A DNA stretch of 64,000 nucleotides from a candidate division WOR-3 bacterium. Its GTDB lineage: Bacteria; Hydrothermota; UBA3072. Position numbers and translations under genes: made by a program. The first letter of the stretch is position 1. The number at the start of each line of letters is the position of its first letter. Below the pieces are notes generated by a model. That model saw only the letters and a list, made by a program, of their open reading frames with translations, searched no databases and was not told where the DNA came from. The stretch is taken from positions 2,377 through 66,376 of the forward strand of contig JAGLZA010000024.1 in the NCBI GenBank assembly GCA_023131835.1. Reading direction: 5' to 3'. Positions 41,816 to 64,000 of this stretch are shown piece after piece.

Positions 41816-42874
41816 TCAAAAACGCATAGGACATTTAATACAAGCCTCTGGTGGATTCTTTGTATTCATTCTTCTTCTCCATTCTACAAACTCCTTACTA
41901 TTCCAAATCCCCTCTAAAGATTGCTCAAATATGTTTCCCATAAAAATATTATGAACACCACAACATGGACGTACATCTCCTTTAGTGGTAATAGGTAGCA
42001 TATACCACGGTTGGTAACAAACTATTTTGTTACTCGGTAGTTCTAACGGAGGTAAACGTACATCTATGTTCAACTCTTTCCCAAGCTCTTTTGCCTCTCT
42101 GAAAATATCTTTAATTTCCTTTTTATCCTTTGTTTTTCTTATGGCATAGTTTTCTGCACTTTCTTTTCCAACCCAATAACTAACATCCGAAAACGCTATT
42201 CCATCCACACCCACTTCTTTAGCTAAACTAACTAAAGCTAGAACTTCATGTAAATTCTTACCTACCATTATTACAGGAACAAACTCAATCTTCAAATTGA
42301 CTCTTTCTTCTTTTCTCTTTTTACAAAGGTTCTTTATACCTTTAATTGTTTTCTCGAAATTAGCACCCACACGTATACCTTCATAGGTCTCTTTTGTTGC
42401 AGCATCAATAGATAGTGATAAATAATCCAAACCAGAATTTATTAATTCATTAACATTTTTGTTGTTAAATAGAGTCCCATTTGAAGTAAGTAAAACTTCT
42501 AGACCTTTTTCCTTGCTGTACTTTATTGCATCAAAAATATGTTTGTATAAAAGAGGCTCACCTAATCCTCCAGCTAATTGTATTGTAGTAGCATACTCAG
42601 ATACTTTGTCAATAATGTTTCTTACCTGTTTAAAATTAAGTTCATTTAATTCTATTGTCGGATCGGTAGTTCTTAAACACATAATGCATTTAAGGTTGCA
42701 ATTATCCGTTAGTGCTAGATCTATAAATCGAGGATATGATTTGAGTTTTGGTTTTTTGAAAAAAATCTCCACATCATTTAAAATATAGTTGCTAAATCTC
42801 TTTCCTCCATATTTTAACAGAATTTTTGGATATATAATCCAAATTCGGTTAAATACTTCCCAAATAGTTTTCAT
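41816..42874 (-). CDS. Radical SAM enzyme with a C-terminal SPASM/twitch-like Cys-rich domain.
   Basis: LTDNCNLKCIMC is the CxxxCxxC motif. The C-terminus has extra Cys residues: CYQPWY...RPCCGVHN...CIKCP. Confidence 0.7.
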   Translation of the reverse strand: MKTIWEVFNRIWIIYPKILLKYGGKRFSNYILNDVEIFFKKPKLKSYPRFIDLALTDNCNLKCIMCLRTTDPTIELNELNFKQVRNIIDKVSEYATTIQLAGGLGEPLLYKHIFDAIKYSKEKGLEVLLTSNGTLFNNKNVNELINSGLDYLSLSIDAATKETYEGIRVGANFEKTIKGIKNLCKKRKEERVNLKIEFVPVIMVGKNLHEVLALVSLAKEVGVDGIAFSDVSYWVGKESAENYAIRKTKDKKEIKDIFREAKELGKELNIDVRLPPLELPSNKIVCYQPWYMLPITTKGDVRPCCGVHNIFMGNIFEQSLEGIWNSKEFVEWRRRMNTKNPPEACIKCPMRF

Positions 42875-42877
42875 TTT

Positions 42878-43894
42878 TTATCTTCCTTTTATATTACTTA
42901 CTTTTTTAACAAGGACAAATTGACGAATACCACACCATTTAATTACTGGTAGATTAGAAGCTAATAACCTATCTGTTAATTCTAAACACTTACCAAACAT
43001 CTTATATGACGAATCCACACCCATTTTTTCTAAAAAAGAAAAGAAACGCCAAACTAACTTTGGAGAAGAACCATAGTACCATAACCTACTCTCATGCCGT
43101 TCTACTGAAAAACCAGTCTTTACAAGCCATCGTCTTAAAATACTAGGTTGTAAAGCAGGATGCCACTTAAGAGCTTCCTTCCAATATCTATGAGCGTTTA
43201 CTTCTTTATACCAAATAAAAGGTTTAACTAACACAGAAAATAAATTTGCAGGATAAAAATATATTGATACACACGGAGTTGATAACGAAAGATGTCCACC
43301 ATCCTTAAGAATCCTATTTATCTCTCGTAAATATCCGAAAGGGTCATCCAAATGTTCCAGTACCTCACTACTCAAAACAATATCAACTGAACCATCATGA
43401 AATGGAGTATCCTTTATCCCGTGGTGTACCAAAACTAAACGGAACTTTCTTTTAAAGTTTTGTTGGGCAATTACTAAGGATTCTTTGCTTAAATCTAATC
43501 CATAATAAGTATTGATTGTATCTGGGAATGAATTAATATAAGGAAGCTGTCCACATCCTAAATCAACAATAGTTGAATTTGAAATGTATGGAGAAAGGAG
43601 TTTTGTATGAAAATTAGGAAAATTAACACTATGTAACCTCGCTAAATATTCAACATTACTCTGTATGTATGAATTATAATATTTACGTTCATCCCTTAGC
43701 TTATATAAATCAAGAAGATTATCCCCTATTCTAAGATCAATCTCCTTATTTTTTTCTTCCATCAAAACTATACTATCCTCAATTGGATATGTTTGCATAC
43801 AATAATTACAGACAAATCCATCAGGTTGTTGAATCAGAATATTTCCACATCGTTTACAACACAATGCTATATTAAGGTTATTCATGTTTTTCAC
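42878..43894 (-). CDS. Class I SAM-dependent methyltransferase with an N-terminal Trm112-like zinc ribbon.
   Basis: CCKRCGN...CNYC. Motif I VDLGCGQLPY. DIVLSSEVLEHL. Confidence 0.65.
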   Translation of the reverse strand: MKNMNNLNIALCCKRCGNILIQQPDGFVCNYCMQTYPIEDSIVLMEEKNKEIDLRIGDNLLDLYKLRDERKYYNSYIQSNVEYLARLHSVNFPNFHTKLLSPYISNSTIVDLGCGQLPYINSFPDTINTYYGLDLSKESLVIAQQNFKRKFRLVLVHHGIKDTPFHDGSVDIVLSSEVLEHLDDPFGYLREINRILKDGGHLSLSTPCVSIYFYPANLFSVLVKPFIWYKEVNAHRYWKEALKWHPALQPSILRRWLVKTGFSVERHESRLWYYGSSPKLVWRFFSFLEKMGVDSSYKMFGKCLELTDRLLASNLPVIKWCGIRQFVLVKKVSNIKGR

Positions 43895-62140: not shown

Positions 62141-63487
62141 TTATTTATCCCACCGATAATTAAATAATTTCAATCTTTCCTTTTCAAACAGCTTGTATAT
62201 TTTGACAAATCGTTCTATACTAACCTCATCAGTAAGTAATATCTGGTTTTTATTTATAATATCCTCTTCCTCGAGTTTACCACCTAATTCCTTCATTTTT
62301 AGCATATTCCAATTCATATTTTCAGATACTTTACCTTTCTTCATAGCAGATTCCCATAATAGCGTTTTGGGATATGGTGTTGCAATAAAATGAGCAAACT
62401 TATCTAGCTTTAAACTCTTTATAAAAACTAAAGTTTTGAGCATATCCTTTTCTGTTTCACCAGGAGAACCAATTATAAGAGATCCACACACACTAAAACC
62501 ATACCTTTTTGCAAGCTTAACAGCATTTCTAATTTGTCTAATTGTAAGTGTATTATTTTTTAGGTAGTCTAAAAACTTCTGGGAACCTGATTCTATTCCA
62601 AAATCAACATTAATCACACCCATCCTTTTTAGATTCTTACAAATATCTTCATCAAATATATCTGCTTTTGCATTAATGCCAAATTCAACTTCATGGTTTA
62701 TACCATCTTTACAAATTAATTCAGCAATTTTATGTAACCTTTTTTTATTAATAGCAAAAAGGTCATCATATAAATGAACATACTTAACTTTATATTTTTC
62801 TATTAATAGTTTTATCTCTCCTAAAACATACTCTGGTGAAAAGTAACGTATATTCCCCCAAAAAGCTGCTGCAGAACAAAAAGCACATTTATAAGGGCAT
62901 CCTCTTGAAGTAAACATAAAAGTACCTCGTCCAAAATATGGTCCAAAAACATTTGTCTTAGCAAGATAATGTTCCATATCGAGTAAATCCCTATCAGGAT
63001 ATGGTATTTTATCTAGCGGTTTAATTTTTTCTCTTTTTTCTGTTTTTATTATCCTTTTATTCTCTCTAAAAACAATCCCTTTTATGTTATGTAATTGCTC
63101 CTTTTTTAGCCCTCTCTCTTTAAACAAAGAAACTAATTCTAACATTGTTTGTTCTCCCTCTCCTATAACACCAACATCACATGAACTTGGTAATGAATTA
63201 GGAAGTTCAGAAATATGAAAACCACCAATTATAACAGGAACATCCATTTCCTTTTTGATATTATTTGCAATTTCTACTGCTGCATTATATTGGATTGTTA
63301 TTGCACTTATTCCAATTAGGTCTGGTGAAAATCTATGAATACATGTCAGATCCTTTGGTATATACTCTAAAATTTTAATATTCACATCATCCATATATTT
63401 TCTCAAATATGAGGCAATATATGTCGGTCCTAAAGATGGTAATCCCTGTAAACTATCATTGGTAGATATTAATAATATTTTTATCAT
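62141..63487 (-). CDS. B12-binding radical SAM enzyme (class B).
   Basis: SRGCPYKCAFCS is the CxxxCxxC motif. An N-terminal B12-binding-like domain. Confidence 0.7.
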   Translation of the reverse strand: MIKILLISTNDSLQGLPSLGPTYIASYLRKYMDDVNIKILEYIPKDLTCIHRFSPDLIGISAITIQYNAAVEIANNIKKEMDVPVIIGGFHISELPNSLPSSCDVGVIGEGEQTMLELVSLFKERGLKKEQLHNIKGIVFRENKRIIKTEKREKIKPLDKIPYPDRDLLDMEHYLAKTNVFGPYFGRGTFMFTSRGCPYKCAFCSAAAFWGNIRYFSPEYVLGEIKLLIEKYKVKYVHLYDDLFAINKKRLHKIAELICKDGINHEVEFGINAKADIFDEDICKNLKRMGVINVDFGIESGSQKFLDYLKNNTLTIRQIRNAVKLAKRYGFSVCGSLIIGSPGETEKDMLKTLVFIKSLKLDKFAHFIATPYPKTLLWESAMKKGKVSENMNWNMLKMKELGGKLEEEDIINKNQILLTDEVSIERFVKIYKLFEKERLKLFNYRWDK

Positions 63488-63499
63488 TGTTTTATTCCT

Positions 63500-64000
63500 T
63501 TATCCCATTTTATTTATGTTCAACTCTGGATTTCTAACGTCCCCATTTATAAATATGCCATACCAAATCTCAAATGTTAATAAGTTCCACATTACGTTGT
63601 AATGCATATTCAATCTCGGATTTGGTATTTCATTTAGCACCTTGTTAATATAATCTTGTTTAAAATAACCATCCTTCACCAGATTGCTTTCAGATAATTT
63701 CTGTATTGCTATTTCACGCAACTCTCTTAGATATGTCTCATAAGTTTCACTAGCAAATCCTCGCTTCTCTTTTTTCAAAACTTCTTTTGGTAGCAAATCC
63801 TTCATTGCCATCTTCAAAATATACTTTCCATTCGGATCTTTAAGTTTTAAATGTGGTGGTATAGTAAATGCAAAATCTACCAGTTTACCATCCAGAAATG
63901 GAACCCTACTTTCGACTGAATGTACCATATTCATCCTATCATCCACTAAAAGAAAATCATCAACCATCTTAACACCAAAATCCGTTAAGAACACTTGATC
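63500..64000 (-). CDS. Asparagine synthetase (glutamine-hydrolysing)-like amidotransferase. Only the C-terminal part is in the window; the 5' end is beyond it.
   Basis: HSVESRVPFLDGKLVDFAFTIP...LPKEVLKKEKRGF is typical of the AsnB C-terminal synthetase domain. The frame stays open to the window edge. Confidence 0.6.
   Translation of the reverse strand, partial: DQVFLTDFGVKMVDDFLLVDDRMNMVHSVESRVPFLDGKLVDFAFTIPPHLKLKDPNGKYILKMAMKDLLPKEVLKKEKRGFASETYETYLRELREIAIQKLSESNLVKDGYFKQDYINKVLNEIPNPRLNMHYNVMWNLLTFEIWYGIFINGDVRNPELNINKMG

What the first reader, a model, noticed from the sequence alone, without database searches (positions are those of the whole stretch)
41816..64000. Glycan cluster with four radical SAM enzymes (three B12-dependent), four methyltransferases and an AsnB-like amidotransferase
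Alongside standard parts (four GT4s, flippase, two SDR epimerases, DegT aminotransferase) the cluster carries a SPASM radical SAM enzyme and three class-B cobalamin radical SAM enzymes. The class-B enzymes are typically C-methyltransferases at unactivated carbons. It also has four SAM MTases and an asparagine-synthetase-like enzyme, which in methanogen N-glycan pathways makes acetamidino sugars. The cluster predicts a highly unusual glycan with amino, amidino and multiply C/O-methylated sugars. That glycan presumably decorates the sequon-rich giant proteins upstream.
Basis: partly seen in the sequence, partly recalled or inferred. Interest (0 to 1): 0.7.

Follow-up and report, generated by a model that had tools for sequence, protein, structure and literature searches.

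The report
Archaeal N-glycan operon with radical-SAM enzymes
This is the larger part of a roughly 32-kb protein N-glycosylation gene array, most likely from an uncultivated archaeon, that carries four radical-SAM enzymes and a previously unrecognised membrane glycosyltransferase, which predicts sugar chemistry not yet described for protein glycosylation.

Summary
The gene inventory is real. On the minus strand of 41816-64000 I confirm four radical-SAM (rSAM) proteins, four class-I methyltransferases, four GT4s, a Wzx-type flippase, two SDRs, a DegT aminotransferase and the C-terminus of an AsnB-type amidotransferase.

Corrections:
- Only one rSAM (62141-63487) has a B12-binding domain above Pfam threshold. 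The other two have divergent Rossmann-like N-domains, and the one modelled (60709-62139) is structurally closest to AprD4, a sugar dehydratase reported not to bind cobalamin.
- The "SPASM" enzyme has a one-cluster, BtrN-like twitch domain.

The array continues 9.5 kb past the window. There it has a 2,3-diacetamido-uronic-acid module and an archaeal-type aglB with WWDYG. Sequons are strongly enriched in two giant surface proteins (z = 15.6 and 7.0) and in the last gene of the array (z = 5.6). N-glycan is therefore the best reading.

Parts of the cluster recur in bacteria and archaea as a cassette: twitch rSAM, GT4, methyltransferases, AsnB and GT-C. Several rSAMs sit next to, or are fused to, glycosyltransferases. 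C-methylation and acetamidino formation remain unproven. I rate it a new variant of a known kind, with moderately high interest.

The parts
40384..41766 (-). Last gene of the array: a 460-aa membrane-anchored protein (N-terminal signal/TM, C-terminal TMs) with 24 N-X-S/T sequons. Candidate dedicated acceptor glycoprotein.
   Evidence: Sequons: 24 observed vs 9.1 expected on shuffling, z = 5.6. Lies 49 bp downstream of the SPASM gene. No Pfam family at E<=0.001.
41816..42874 (-). Radical SAM enzyme with a truncated SPASM (twitch-like, one auxiliary cluster) domain. Proposed BtrN-like oxidation or epimerisation of a sugar hydroxyl.
   Evidence: PF04055 70 bits and PF13186 54 bits. CNLKCIMC at residue 59, and only five C-terminal Cys: 286, 304, 305, 345, 348. 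The C-x17-C stretch aligns to the BtrN twitch domain. The pattern is conserved in homologues. Homologues are adjacent to a GT4_425-like gene in 12 of 16 loci.
42878..43894 (-). Class-I SAM methyltransferase (MT1, 338 aa)
   Evidence: Methyltransf_11, 75 bits. Homologues of 42-56% identity in related cassettes L008 and L027.
43891..44637 (-). Class-I SAM methyltransferase (MT2, 248 aa). Recurrent partner of the GT4 at 45820-47097.
   Evidence: Methyltransf_11, 64 bits. A homologue is fused to the GT4 in L027 6459-8450. Adjacent to GT4_425-like genes in related loci.
44630..45850 (-). GT4 glycosyltransferase (406 aa)
   Evidence: Glycos_transf_1, 133 bits.
45820..47097 (-). GT4 glycosyltransferase (425 aa). 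Conserved partner of the twitch rSAM and MT2.
   Evidence: Glycos_transf_1, 113 bits. Co-occurrence and adjacency statistics.
47094..48266 (-). GT4 glycosyltransferase (390 aa)
   Evidence: Glycos_transf_1 85 bits and Glyco_transf_4 67 bits.
48269..49684 (-). Class-B-like radical SAM ('B12c', 471 aa) with a divergent N-domain. Translationally coupled to the upstream GT4. Chemistry unknown (HpnJ/AprD4-like).
   Evidence: PF04055 93 bits. PF02310 only 23.6 bits (gathering score 32.1). The HpnJ model aligns over 1-448 at 189 bits, below its cut-off of 578. Best PDB sequence match is AprD4, 85 bits. Lacks the G[GS]xH/GEGE signature. The GT4-rSAM pair is conserved in L109 at 42% and 59% identity.
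49681..50871 (-). GT4 glycosyltransferase (396 aa). Partner of B12c, with a 4-bp overlap.
   Evidence: Glycos_transf_1 125 bits and Glyco_transf_4 92 bits. A 42%-identity homologue sits immediately upstream of the B12c homologue in L109.
50892..52445 (-). Wzx/AglR-type lipid-linked-glycan flippase (517 aa, about 13 TM)
   Evidence: Polysacc_synt 89 bits, MatE 76 bits, MurJ 37 bits. TM count. 53% identical to the flippase of a Halobacteriota MAG locus, L007.
52463..53989 (-). Previously unannotated GT-C-fold membrane glycosyltransferase (508 aa). Proposed extracytoplasmic transfer step after flipping.
   Evidence: No Pfam or NCBIfam hit even at E<=1. The family has about 56 clusters, all annotated as hypothetical. 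AF2 model pLDDT 90.6. The top 27 Foldseek PDB hits are all GT-C enzymes: STT3, AglB, PglB, DPY19, ArnT, AftA, ALG9. Conserved residues: D35 (nearly invariant, >=90%); Q66, Y68, P69, P70, D96, R140 and H180 invariant.
53999..54967 (-). Membrane-anchored extracytoplasmic protein with about six repeats (beta-propeller-like by inspection). Function unknown.
   Evidence: One N-terminal TM and 6 sequons. Repeats visible in the sequence. No Pfam or PDB match. No homologue in the compared loci.
55004..55651 (-). Class-I SAM methyltransferase (MT3, 215 aa)
   Evidence: Methyltransf_31, 48 bits.
55639..56715 (-). FemAB-like (GNAT-fold) transferase. Proposed aminoacyl transfer onto an amino sugar.
   Evidence: PF02388 29.1 bits (gathering score 24). 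TIGR03019 pepcterm_femAB 98 bits, below its cut-off of 260. Weak PDB hit to an aminoacyl-tRNA-dependent peptide synthase. Homologues in L009 (39%) and L010 (27%).
56708..57652 (-). SDR nucleotide-sugar epimerase/dehydratase (314 aa). TviC-like, i.e. resembling UDP-GlcNAcA 4-epimerase.
   Evidence: Epimerase 216 bits. TviC model 226 bits, below cut-off.
57669..58709 (-). Methyltransferase with an N-terminal Trm112-like zinc ribbon (MT4, 346 aa). Recurrent neighbour of AsnB-type genes.
   Evidence: Methyltransf_11 54 bits and Trm112p 32 bits. Homologues of 33-40% identity in cassettes. Adjacent to AsnB in 9 of 15 loci.
58713..59609 (-). SDR nucleotide-sugar dehydratase/epimerase (298 aa)
   Evidence: Epimerase 182 bits. 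dTDP-glucose 4,6-dehydratase model 144 bits, below cut-off.
59606..60712 (-). DegT/PseC-like PLP sugar aminotransferase (368 aa)
   Evidence: PF01041 340 bits. PseC 272 bits and ArnB 247 bits, both below cut-off.
60709..62139 (-). Class-B-like radical SAM ('rSAMb', 476 aa), member of a small distinct family without a recognisable B12-binding HMM. Chemistry unknown; closest solved structure is AprD4.
   Evidence: PF04055 61 bits and no PF02310 hit, in it or in 24 relatives. hhalign to the B12a family: probability 99.9% over the full length, but GGxH is replaced by LNDP and GEGE by YERE. AF2 pLDDT 89.3. Foldseek top hit AprD4, TM 0.71. Includes the cultured Salidesulfovibrio onnuriiensis at 45% identity.
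62141..63487 (-). Bona fide B12-binding-domain radical SAM ('B12a', 448 aa). Best candidate for a cobalamin-dependent C-methylase.
   Evidence: PF02310 47.6 bits (gathering score 32.1) and PF04055 93 bits. More than 1300 relatives, the nearest named ones being DPANN archaea. Homologues sit in glycan clusters L005-L007. Invariant GGxH and GEGE motifs.
63500..64000 (-). C-terminal 166 aa of a 637-aa glutamine-dependent AsnB-type amidotransferase (the gene runs off the window)
   Evidence: PF00733 119 bits. Full gene at L001 8075-9988: TIGR01536 479 bits (above cut-off) and TIGR03108 475 bits (below cut-off).
3092..10648 (-). 2518-aa surface protein with 158 sequons. Putative N-glycan acceptor.
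   Evidence: 158 observed vs 57.1 expected on shuffling, z = 15.6. DUF2341, Ig_Rha78A_N and CarboxypepD_reg domains. Terminal TM segments.
14694..19259 (-). 1521-aa surface protein with 47 sequons. Putative N-glycan acceptor.
   Evidence: 47 observed vs 20.2 expected, z = 7.0. CarboxypepD_reg domain.

Best explanation
**What the region is.** 40384-64000 is the distal two-thirds of a roughly 32-kb array of about 28 genes. All are co-directional and tightly packed. It is a protein N-glycosylation (agl) array of an uncultivated, most likely DPANN-type, archaeon. The array starts 9.5 kb beyond the window with the oligosaccharyltransferase gene aglB. It ends with a sequon-rich membrane glycoprotein gene.

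**Shown.** Gene families, gene order, the AglB hallmarks, sequon enrichment in neighbouring surface proteins, the GT-C fold of the 508-aa protein, and recurrence of sub-cassettes in other genomes.

**Inferred mechanism.**
1. A WbpA/B/E/D-like set (just outside the window) plus the AsnB-type enzyme makes a 2,3-diacetamido-2,3-dideoxy-hexuronic acid and amidates its carboxyl group.
2. DegT, two SDRs, the FemAB-like transferase and two methyltransferases make a second, N-acylated or N-aminoacylated and methylated amino sugar.
3. Four GT4s build the oligosaccharide on a polyprenyl (dolichyl) phosphate carrier at the cytoplasmic face.
4. Each radical-SAM enzyme works together with a particular glycosyltransferase and edits the sugar that enzyme handles.
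   - The B12-domain enzyme (62141-63487) most likely C-methylates.
   - The two divergent class-B-like enzymes (48269-49684, 60709-62139) more likely do AprD4/HpnJ-type radical dehydration or rearrangement, possibly without cobalamin.
   - The twitch enzyme (41816-42874) most likely does a BtrN-like oxidation or epimerisation.
5. Wzx flips the glycan and AglB transfers it to Asn of the giant surface proteins. The new GT-C enzyme (52463-53989) adds or transfers a further unit on the outer face, as AglS does in Haloferax.
For: - **Array structure.** The same-strand array from aglB to 40384 has gaps of at most about 70 bp.
- **AglB.** STT3 131 bits, AglB_core 104 bits and AglB_L1 64 bits are all above threshold, and WWDYG is at residue 544. 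The best PDB sequence match is Archaeoglobus AglB-L at E 6e-107, against 1e-4 for eukaryotic STT3 and no PglB hit.
- **Sequons.** z-scores of 15.6, 7.0 and 5.6, against 0.43 sequons per 100 aa in the 16 soluble enzymes of the cluster.
- **Diacetamido module.** An archaeal UDP-GlcNAc 3-dehydrogenase-like gene, DegT, a hexapeptide acetyltransferase and two NDP-sugar dehydrogenases.
- **rSAM-glycosyltransferase coupling.**
  - The GT4_396-B12c pair is conserved in L109.
  - The twitch rSAM is adjacent to a GT4_425-like gene in 12 of 16 loci.
  - L009 carries a B12-rSAM::GT2 fusion, and L027 a GT4::methyltransferase fusion.
  - B12a homologues in L005 and L007, and an rSAMb homologue in L008, lie next to a GT4.
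- **GT-C fold** of 52463-53989. Its homologues follow a flippase-sized polytopic protein in 14 of 31 loci.
- **Family contexts.** All 7 other loci examined for the three class-B-like families (L005-L010, L109) are glycan clusters.
Against: - No priming phosphoglycosyltransferase or Dol-P-sugar synthase was seen in the 32 kb examined.
- The conserved cassette (twitch rSAM, GT4, methyltransferases, AsnB, GT-C) also occurs in bacteria that presumably lack AglB: Salidesulfovibrio onnuriiensis (L008) and a locus next to a class-A PBP (L028). It can therefore function without N-glycosylation.
- NCBI labels the source MAG 'candidate division WOR-3 bacterium'.
- None of the rSAMs reaches the cut-off of any characterised family, so every assigned reaction is by analogy.
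- Cobalamin binding cannot be read from sequence.
- No glycan structure exists.
Confidence: 0.6

Rival explanations
1. All three class-B enzymes are cobalamin-dependent C-methyltransferases, and the AsnB-like enzyme forms an acetamidino group. The result would be a multiply C-methylated, amidino-bearing N-glycan.
For: One enzyme has a genuine B12-binding domain (47.6 bits). Many characterised class-B enzymes are methylases (review PMC12931638). The other two N-domains are homologous to B12-binding domains. Cbl-dependent methylases (MgmA, CysS, TokK, TsrM) follow AprD4 closely in the fold search. The M. maripaludis N-glycan does carry an acetamidino diamino-mannuronic acid (PMC11407970).
Against: - Two of the three lack a PF02310 hit above threshold and lack the G[GS]xH/GEGE signature of their relatives.
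- The best matches for those two are HpnJ and AprD4, neither a methylase. AprD4- and ArsL-like proteins do not bind cobalamin.
- No methylase equivalog cut-off is met.
- The AsnB-type protein hits asparagine-synthase and EPS-amidotransferase models. It does not hit N-acetyl-sugar amidotransferase models.
- From memory, the Methanococcus acetamidino genes (AglXYZ) are of the HisH/HisF/WbuX type, not AsnB. I could not verify this in the library.
Confidence: 0.2
2. The window genes make a separate, non-N-linked surface glycoconjugate (polysaccharide, glycolipid or O-glycan). It would be flipped by Wzx and transferred by the new GT-C enzyme. The adjacency to aglB would be incidental or reflect only shared precursor supply.
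For: The cassette with the GT-C protein recurs in 42 metagenomic loci of at least 8 kb, and in bacteria, without aglB nearby. The GT-C family has an OST-like fold and could be the terminal transferase. FemAB-like and AsnB-like models point to bacterial EPS (PEP-CTERM) loci.
Against: aglB is in the same uninterrupted co-directional array. The array ends in a sequon-rich protein and lies beside sequon-rich giants. No Wzy polymerase or chain-length regulator was detected.
Confidence: 0.25
3. The radical-SAM enzymes modify peptides or proteins (RiPP-like chemistry, or modification of the glycoproteins' amino acids) rather than sugars.
For: SPASM/twitch and class-B rSAMs are frequent RiPP maturases. 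NCBIfam lists ApyD, sactipeptide and other RiPP models among the weak hits.
Against: No precursor-peptide, leader-peptidase or RiPP-recognition genes are present. The enzymes are consistently embedded in glycan clusters, and are adjacent or fused to glycosyltransferases. The best structural and sequence analogues act on sugars: AprD4, BtrN and HpnJ.
Confidence: 0.05

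Closest known systems
Methanococcus maripaludis agl pathway (AglB; glycan with GlcNAc3NAcA and ManNAc3NAmA6Thr)
   Same: AglB-dependent N-glycosylation. A 3-dehydrogenase, aminotransferase and acetyltransferase set for 2,3-diacetamido uronic acids. Amide-type decoration of the uronic acid carboxyl group. Methylated terminal sugar (PMC11407970; gene content).
   Different: No radical-SAM enzyme is described in that pathway or in the 2024 review, which has 0 mentions of 'radical'. 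The amidotransferase here is AsnB-type. This cluster adds FemAB-like, GT-C and four rSAM genes.
Haloferax volcanii agl island (AglB-adjacent agl genes; AglP methyltransferase, AglR flippase, AglS Dol-P-Man mannosyltransferase). Recalled from memory.
   Same: agl genes clustered with aglB. A SAM methyltransferase acts on the lipid-linked glycan. A Wzx-like flippase is followed by a polytopic transferase acting on the outer face.
   Different: The GT-C protein here belongs to an unannotated family with no Pfam hit. There are far more tailoring enzymes here, including the rSAMs.
AprD4 (radical-SAM 1,2-diol dehydratase of apramycin biosynthesis) and HpnJ (hopanoid glucosamine ring contraction)
   Same: Two-domain architecture: a Rossmann-like N-domain plus an rSAM barrel, about 450-475 aa, with amino-sugar substrates. 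AprD4 is the top fold match of 60709-62139 (TM 0.71) and the top PDB sequence match of 48269-49684. The HpnJ model aligns end-to-end with 48269-49684.
   Different: Identity is 16% or lower to AprD4. HpnJ scores 189 bits against a cut-off of 578. The context is a cell-surface glycan cluster, not antibiotic or hopanoid biosynthesis.
Cobalamin-dependent class-B rSAM methylases acting on sugars (GenK, GenD1) and others (TokK, QCMT/MgmA, CysS)
   Same: 62141-63487 has a PF02310 + PF04055 architecture. The MgmA, CysS and TokK structures are within the top fold hits for the paralogous 60709-62139.
   Different: No equivalog cut-off is reached. No substrate is known. According to the 2026 review, no cell-surface glycan substrate has been reported for the class (0 mentions of glycan, polysaccharide or sugar).
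BtrN (twitch-domain rSAM dehydrogenase of butirosin). Related sugar-acting twitch enzymes are recalled from memory.
   Same: An rSAM core plus a single-cluster C-terminal domain with the same C-x17-C ... C-x2-C spacing.
   Different: The hit is weak (E 3e-4 over 56 residues). The protein is larger (352 aa) and is paired with a GT4 and methyltransferases in a surface glycan cassette.
XrtA/PEP-CTERM exopolysaccharide loci (TIGR03019 FemAB-like + TIGR03108 AsnB-like amidotransferase)
   Same: The same pairing of a FemAB-family protein and an AsnB-type amidotransferase in a glycan locus.
   Different: Both scores are below the model cut-offs (98 of 260, 475 of 817). There is no exosortase or PEP-CTERM protein here, and the context is archaeal aglB.

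Membership tests
Radical SAM superfamily | PF04055 core with a CxxxCxxC motif | tested here: met
   All four proteins score 61-93 bits against a gathering score of 29.5. Each has one CxxxCxxC motif, at residues 59, 209, 195 and 197.
Class B (cobalamin-dependent) radical SAM | N-terminal B12-binding domain (PF02310) at or above the gathering score | tested here: inconclusive
   62141-63487 is met (47.6 vs 32.1 bits). 48269-49684 is sub-threshold (23.6 bits). 60709-62139 has no hit, but its N-domain is homologous by hhalign (probability 99.9%) and it has a class-B-like fold.
Class B (cobalamin-dependent) radical SAM | Actual cobalamin binding and use | not testable with these tools
   AprD4- and ArsL-like proteins share the architecture without binding cobalamin (PMC12931638). 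Two of the three enzymes lack the G[GS]xH/GEGE signature.
Characterised class-B rSAM families, methylases and others (HpnR, PhpK, KedN5, QCMT, TsrM-type; also HpnJ, BchE, AprD4) | Score at or above the NCBIfam equivalog cut-off | tested here: not met
   The best scores are 189 (HpnJ, cut-off 578), 159 (BchE, cut-off 481) and 105 (HpnJ). All are far below cut-off.
SPASM-domain radical SAM | PF13186 above threshold | tested here: met
   54.3 bits against 21.5.
SPASM-domain radical SAM | Seven-cysteine motif for two auxiliary 4Fe-4S clusters | tested here: not met
   Only C286, C304, C305, C345 and C348 are present, and the protein ends at residue 352. The spacing matches the one-cluster twitch domain of BtrN and is conserved in homologues.
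Archaeal AglB-dependent N-glycosylation (agl) cluster | AglB/STT3 with the WWDYG motif encoded in the cluster | tested here: met
   L001 1079-3490, outside the window. STT3, AglB_core and AglB_L1 are above threshold, WWDYG is at 544, and the match to A. fulgidus AglB-L is E 6e-107.
Archaeal AglB-dependent N-glycosylation (agl) cluster | Secreted or membrane acceptor proteins enriched in N-X-S/T | tested here: met
   z = 15.6, 7.0 and 5.6 against residue shuffles.
Archaeal AglB-dependent N-glycosylation (agl) cluster | Priming glycosyltransferase on dolichyl phosphate (AglH/AglJ/AglK type) | tested here: not met
   No PF00953, Bac_transf or GT2 Dol-P synthase among the genes of the array. It may be encoded elsewhere in the genome.
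Archaeal AglB-dependent N-glycosylation (agl) cluster | The glycan is actually Asn-linked | not testable with these tools
   Requires glycoproteomics.
Glutamine-hydrolysing asparagine synthase (AsnB) family | TIGR01536 at or above cut-off; GATase class II + Asn_synthase domains | tested here: met
   479 bits against 267 for the full 637-aa protein. The window holds only its C-terminal 166 aa.
N-acetyl-sugar amidotransferase (acetamidino-forming, WbuX/PseA/LfnA type) | Hit to that family's model | tested here: not met
   No such model appears among the 11 NCBIfam hits at E<=1e-5. That the library contains the model is assumed from memory.
Wzx/Wzy-dependent polysaccharide pathway | Wzx flippase | tested here: met
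   Polysacc_synt, MatE and MurJ hits for 50892-52445.
Wzx/Wzy-dependent polysaccharide pathway | Wzy polymerase and chain-length regulator | tested here: not met
   No Wzy_C or Wzz hits. The only other polytopic protein has an STT3/ArnT-like GT-C fold.
GT-C glycosyltransferase superfamily | GT-C membrane fold | tested here: met
   AF2 pLDDT 90.6. The top 27 Foldseek PDB hits are all GT-C, with TMq 0.43-0.60 and E down to 3e-7.
GT-C glycosyltransferase superfamily | Conserved acidic residue in the first extracytoplasmic loop | tested here: inconclusive
   D35 is nearly invariant, and D96 and the QWYPP motif are invariant in 31 sequences. The topology and catalytic role were not verified.
FemAB family | PF02388 at or above gathering score; XrtA-associated equivalog TIGR03019 at or above cut-off | tested here: inconclusive
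   PF02388 scores 29.1 against 24, which is met but covers only the C-terminal 80 residues. TIGR03019 scores 98 against 260, which is not met.

The most novel reading that the evidence does not exclude
The cluster embeds a cassette that is conserved across bacteria and archaea and is so far undescribed. It comprises a twitch radical-SAM enzyme, a GT4, methyltransferases, an AsnB-type amidotransferase, a zinc-ribbon methyltransferase, a flippase and a new GT-C family. In some lineages class-B-like radical-SAM enzymes are added, each paired with or fused to a glycosyltransferase. Together they would perform carbon-skeleton editing (C-methylation, deoxygenation, ring rearrangement) on lipid-linked sugars. 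In this archaeon those sugars would be installed on surface proteins by AglB. This would be the first radical chemistry in protein N-glycan biosynthesis, and the GT-C family would be a new kind of extracytoplasmic glycan transferase.
Probability: 0.35. Interest if true: 0.8.

Novelty: new variant of a known kind. Interest (0 to 1): 0.58.

Why it matters
- **New chemistry for N-glycans.** Known archaeal N-glycan pathways use conventional sugar chemistry: SDRs, aminotransferases, acyl- and methyltransferases. If radical-SAM enzymes edit the sugars here, the known chemistry of protein glycosylation expands. It would also give functions to large uncharacterised rSAM families; the 62141-63487 family alone has more than 1300 relatives.
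- **A new membrane glycosyltransferase family.** The GT-C protein family has no Pfam model and is found in soils, sediments and oceans. It is a candidate new glycan transferase.
- **An experimental route exists.** A cultured bacterium, Salidesulfovibrio onnuriiensis, carries a related cassette, so the predictions can be tested without the uncultivated archaeon.
- **Surface glycans of likely symbionts.** If the source is a DPANN-type episymbiont, heavily modified surface glycans on giant adhesin-like proteins could bear on host recognition.

Tried and rejected
- **Genome-contig scan** with the rSAMb alignment. The first attempt failed for lack of conserved stretches. The second returned only 23-29%-identity Peptostreptococcaceae/Clostridium rSAMs, missed Salidesulfovibrio, and told me nothing.
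- **Rfam scan** of the window and L001. No families, so no cobalamin riboswitch.
- **Promoter and terminator scan.** Counts were no higher than in shuffles.
- **afdb50 fold search** for the GT-C model was unavailable.
- **N-terminal Cys cluster of rSAMb** (C13, C16, C27, C28, C37) as a possible auxiliary metal site. Rejected, because these Cys are not conserved in the family.
- **52463-53989 as a Wzy polymerase.** Rejected by the fold search.
- **Circular element.** The window coordinates overrun ENA scaffold_9, but the first 12 kb lie on another scaffold in that assembly, so the offset is only an assembly difference.
- **Literature.** I found no paper linking aglB, capsular or O-antigen clusters with B12-type radical SAM enzymes. 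The Methanococcus acetamidino-gene papers are not held.
- **Alignment flaw.** The alignment accidentally included GT-C sequences. Only the rSAM rows were used.

Full report
**Observation.**

Every ORF of at least 100 aa with a family assignment between 40384 and 64000 lies on the minus strand. Neighbouring genes overlap by 4-31 bp or are separated by at most about 70 bp.

- an rSAM-SPASM protein (41816-42874)
- four class-I methyltransferases (42878-43894, 43891-44637, 55004-55651, 57669-58709)
- four GT4 glycosyltransferases (44630-45850, 45820-47097, 47094-48266, 49681-50871)
- a Wzx/MATE-type flippase (50892-52445)
- two SDR enzymes (56708-57652, 58713-59609)
- a DegT aminotransferase (59606-60712)
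- three class-B-like radical SAM proteins (48269-49684, 60709-62139, 62141-63487)
- the C-terminal 166 residues of an Asn_synthase-domain protein (63500-64000)

Each rSAM has a single CxxxCxxC motif.

- a FemAB-like protein (55639-56715; PF02388 29 bits, TIGR03019 98 bits)
- a 508-aa polytopic membrane protein (52463-53989)
- a membrane-anchored repeat protein (53999-54967)
- a sequon-rich 460-aa membrane protein that closes the array (40384-41766)

**The B12 question.**

- PF02310 is above its gathering score only in 62141-63487 (47.6 vs 32.1 bits).
- In 48269-49684 it reaches 23.6 bits (E 5e-5).
- In 60709-62139 it is absent. It is also absent from all 24 close relatives of that protein, whereas more distant relatives (31% identity or less) carry it.

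A profile-profile comparison shows that the N-domain of the 60709-62139 family is nevertheless homologous to that of the 62141-63487 family (probability 99.9%, E 4e-36, aligned over essentially the full length). However, the invariant GGxH and GEGE motifs of the latter are replaced by LNDP and YERE. The 48269-49684 subfamily shows a similar loss.

An AlphaFold model of 60709-62139 (pLDDT 89.3) has the two-domain class-B architecture. Its best structural match is AprD4, a radical-SAM 1,2-diol dehydratase that acts on an aminoglycoside sugar (TM 0.71). The cobalamin enzymes MgmA, CysS, TokK, TsrM and OxsB follow closely. AprD4 is also the best PDB sequence match of 48269-49684 (85 bits), and the HpnJ model aligns with that protein end to end (189 bits, cut-off 578).

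A 2026 review states that AprD4 and ArsL homologues cluster with B12-rSAMs but do not bind cobalamin. It also notes that class-B members include non-methylases (BchE, HpnJ, OxsB). The review does not mention glycan or polysaccharide substrates (PMC12931638).

No protein here reaches any equivalog cut-off. My conclusion is one bona fide B12-domain enzyme and two divergent class-B-like enzymes whose cofactor and reaction are open.

**The SPASM enzyme.**

Its C-terminal domain has only five cysteines (286, 304, 305, 345, 348), and the protein ends at residue 352. The C-x17-C stretch aligns with the one-cluster 'twitch' domain of the sugar dehydrogenase BtrN. Homologues in other loci keep the same pattern.

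**Context beyond the window.**

An exact-match look-up places the genes on a 180-kb metagenomic scaffold. Reading on from the window end, the same strand carries:
- the full 637-aa AsnB-type gene
- an NDP-sugar dehydrogenase
- a hexapeptide acetyltransferase
- a GFO/IDH/MocA oxidoreductase whose best hit is the archaeal UDP-GlcNAc 3-dehydrogenase model
- a second DegT
- a second dehydrogenase
- an 803-aa AglB

The AglB has STT3, AglB_core and AglB_L1 domains all above threshold and a WWDYG motif at 544. It matches Archaeoglobus AglB-L at E 6e-107, against 1e-4 for eukaryotic STT3, and it has no hit to bacterial PglB.

The 3-dehydrogenase, aminotransferase, acetyltransferase and dehydrogenase set is the known route to 2,3-diacetamido-2,3-dideoxy-uronic acids. 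Such sugars occur in the Methanococcus maripaludis N-glycan together with amide-linked decorations (PMC11407970).

**Acceptors.**

| Protein | Sequons observed | Expected on shuffling | z |
|---|---|---|---|
| 2518-aa (3092-10648) | 158 | 57 | 15.6 |
| 1521-aa (14694-19259) | 47 | 20 | 7.0 |
| 460-aa (40384-41766) | 24 | 9 | 5.6 |

Sequon densities per 100 aa are 6.3, 3.1 and 5.2 for these three proteins, against 0.43 for the cluster's 16 soluble enzymes. The 1211-aa protein has no sequons, so 'sequon-rich giants' applies to two of the three.

**Origin.**

NCBI labels the proteins 'candidate division WOR-3 bacterium'. Against that label:
- the AglB is archaeal in type
- the nearest named relatives of 62141-63487 are Woese-, Pace-, Aenigm- and Nanoarchaeota and a Halobacteriota MAG
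- the flippase is 53% identical to one in that Halobacteriota MAG

I infer a mis-binned, probably DPANN-type, archaeal contig. This is an inference, not a demonstration.

**The 508-aa protein.**

It has no Pfam or NCBIfam hit, even at E<=1. Its roughly 56 relatives are all annotated as hypothetical. They occur in archaea (for example a Hodarchaeota MAG) and in bacteria, and one is fused to a GT4.

The AlphaFold model is confident (pLDDT 90.6). Its top 27 PDB fold matches are all GT-C glycosyltransferases: STT3, AglB, PglB, DPY19, ArnT, AftA and ALG9. It is therefore a GT-C enzyme, not a Wzy polymerase. D35 is nearly invariant. The QWYPP motif, D96, R140 and the THKMTTQ motif are invariant or nearly so.

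**A recurrent cassette.**

Contexts of relatives and 80 metagenomic loci retrieved with the GT-C alignment show recurring partnerships. Among the 42 loci of at least 8 kb:

| Homologue found in locus | Share of loci |
|---|---|
| AsnB-type | 60% |
| GT4_425-like | 52% |
| Twitch rSAM | 50% |
| Zinc-ribbon methyltransferase (MT4) | 40% |
| MT2 | 29% |
| Class-B rSAM | 7% |

Adjacency and fusion evidence:
- The twitch rSAM is adjacent to the GT4_425-like gene in 12 of 16 loci.
- MT4 is adjacent to AsnB in 9 of 15 loci.
- The gene upstream of the GT-C is a roughly 500-aa protein with at least 8 TM segments in 14 of 31 loci.
- Fusions exist: GT4::MT2 in L027, B12-rSAM::GT2 in L009, and GT-C::GT4 in P0422.
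- The GT4_396-B12c pair, with its 4-bp overlap, is conserved in L109 at 42% and 59% identity.
- The 60709-62139 family always sits with AsnB, DegT, methyltransferases, a SPASM rSAM and the GT-C homologue. This includes the complete genome of the cultured Salidesulfovibrio onnuriiensis.

**Mechanism (inferred).**

1. Nucleotide-sugar modules supply a diacetamido uronic acid. The AsnB-type enzyme amidates it. I favour the carboxyl group because AsnB-type enzymes amidate carboxylates and the gene abuts the dehydrogenases.
2. They also supply a second amino sugar made by DegT and the SDRs, decorated by the FemAB-like transferase and the methyltransferases.
3. The GT4s assemble the oligosaccharide on a polyprenyl carrier.
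4. The rSAM-GT adjacency and the fusions argue that each rSAM edits the sugar handled by its partner GT, probably at the lipid-linked stage.
5. Wzx flips the glycan, and AglB transfers it to sequons.
6. The GT-C enzyme then acts on the outer face.

I assign C-methylation only to 62141-63487, at about 50%. I assign AprD4/HpnJ-like dehydration or rearrangement to the other two class-B-like enzymes, at about 40%. I assign BtrN-like oxidation or epimerisation to the twitch enzyme, at about 50%.

**Rivals.**

- The main rival is that the cassette makes a non-N-linked glycoconjugate transferred by the GT-C enzyme. It is viable because the cassette works in bacteria without AglB. The uninterrupted array with aglB and the sequon-rich last gene argue against it here.
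- A peptide-modifying role for the rSAMs is unlikely given the contexts.

**Novelty.**

Searches of the held literature found no paper linking aglB or surface polysaccharide clusters with B12-type or SPASM radical-SAM enzymes. The 2024 archaeal N-glycosylation review never mentions radical enzymes.

This is a known kind of system, an agl cluster, in a new variant. It carries a radical-SAM tailoring set and an unrecognised GT-C family. No chemistry has been demonstrated, and such clusters appear to be common in metagenomes. Interest is therefore moderately high rather than exceptional.

Noticed in passing
window 2262-3083, 10908-11774, 13437-14654, 33117-34094, 36052-37005 (all minus strand): Five paralogous small proteins that combine a ROS/MucR-type zinc finger with NUMOD3 motifs (a homing-endonuclease DNA-binding motif). 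They are interleaved with the giant surface-protein genes.
   Followed up: no
window 26139-29774 (minus strand); tandem repeat at 26341-26463: A 1211-aa Lys/Pro-rich protein with no Pfam hit. It has only 0.7% Asn and no sequons. It contains a perfect 12-bp x 10.2 tandem repeat that encodes (VTPP)n. It looks unlike the neighbouring glycoproteins, and the 19-38 kb stretch around it is all unknown small genes.
   Followed up: partly
whole window; NCBI names: The source MAG is labelled 'candidate division WOR-3 bacterium'. Yet the contig carries an archaeal-type AglB, and its proteins' nearest named relatives are DPANN and Halobacteriota archaea. This is probably a mis-binned contig.
   Followed up: partly
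L009 18685-20910; L027 6459-8450; protein P0422: Natural gene fusions: B12-binding rSAM::GT2 (741 aa), GT4::class-I methyltransferase (663 aa) and GT-C::GT4 (866 aa). They physically link the tailoring enzymes to glycosyltransferases.
   Followed up: partly
proteins P0231, P0236, P0238, P0242, P0274, P0288: Among relatives of 48269-49684 there are giant proteins of 1800-2600 aa with three or four class-B rSAM modules in one chain.
   Followed up: no
window 53999-54967 (minus strand): A membrane-anchored protein with about six internal repeats (a motif like Y.W...T.P.K[IL]VK.D). It has no Pfam or PDB sequence match and no homologue in the related cassettes. It may be an extracytoplasmic beta-propeller specific to this lineage.
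   Followed up: partly
L001 3487-4335: The UDP-glucose-dehydrogenase-like gene next to aglB is only 282 aa. It aligns to positions 64-299 of a 413-position model, so it lacks parts of the N- and C-terminal domains. It may be truncated or mis-started.
   Followed up: no
window 1-12592 vs ENA scaffold_9: Window coordinates extend about 12.6 kb past the start of the 180-kb ENA scaffold that holds the cluster. In that assembly the first 12 kb sit on a separate 10.8-kb scaffold, so the window comes from a different assembly of the same population.
   Followed up: yes
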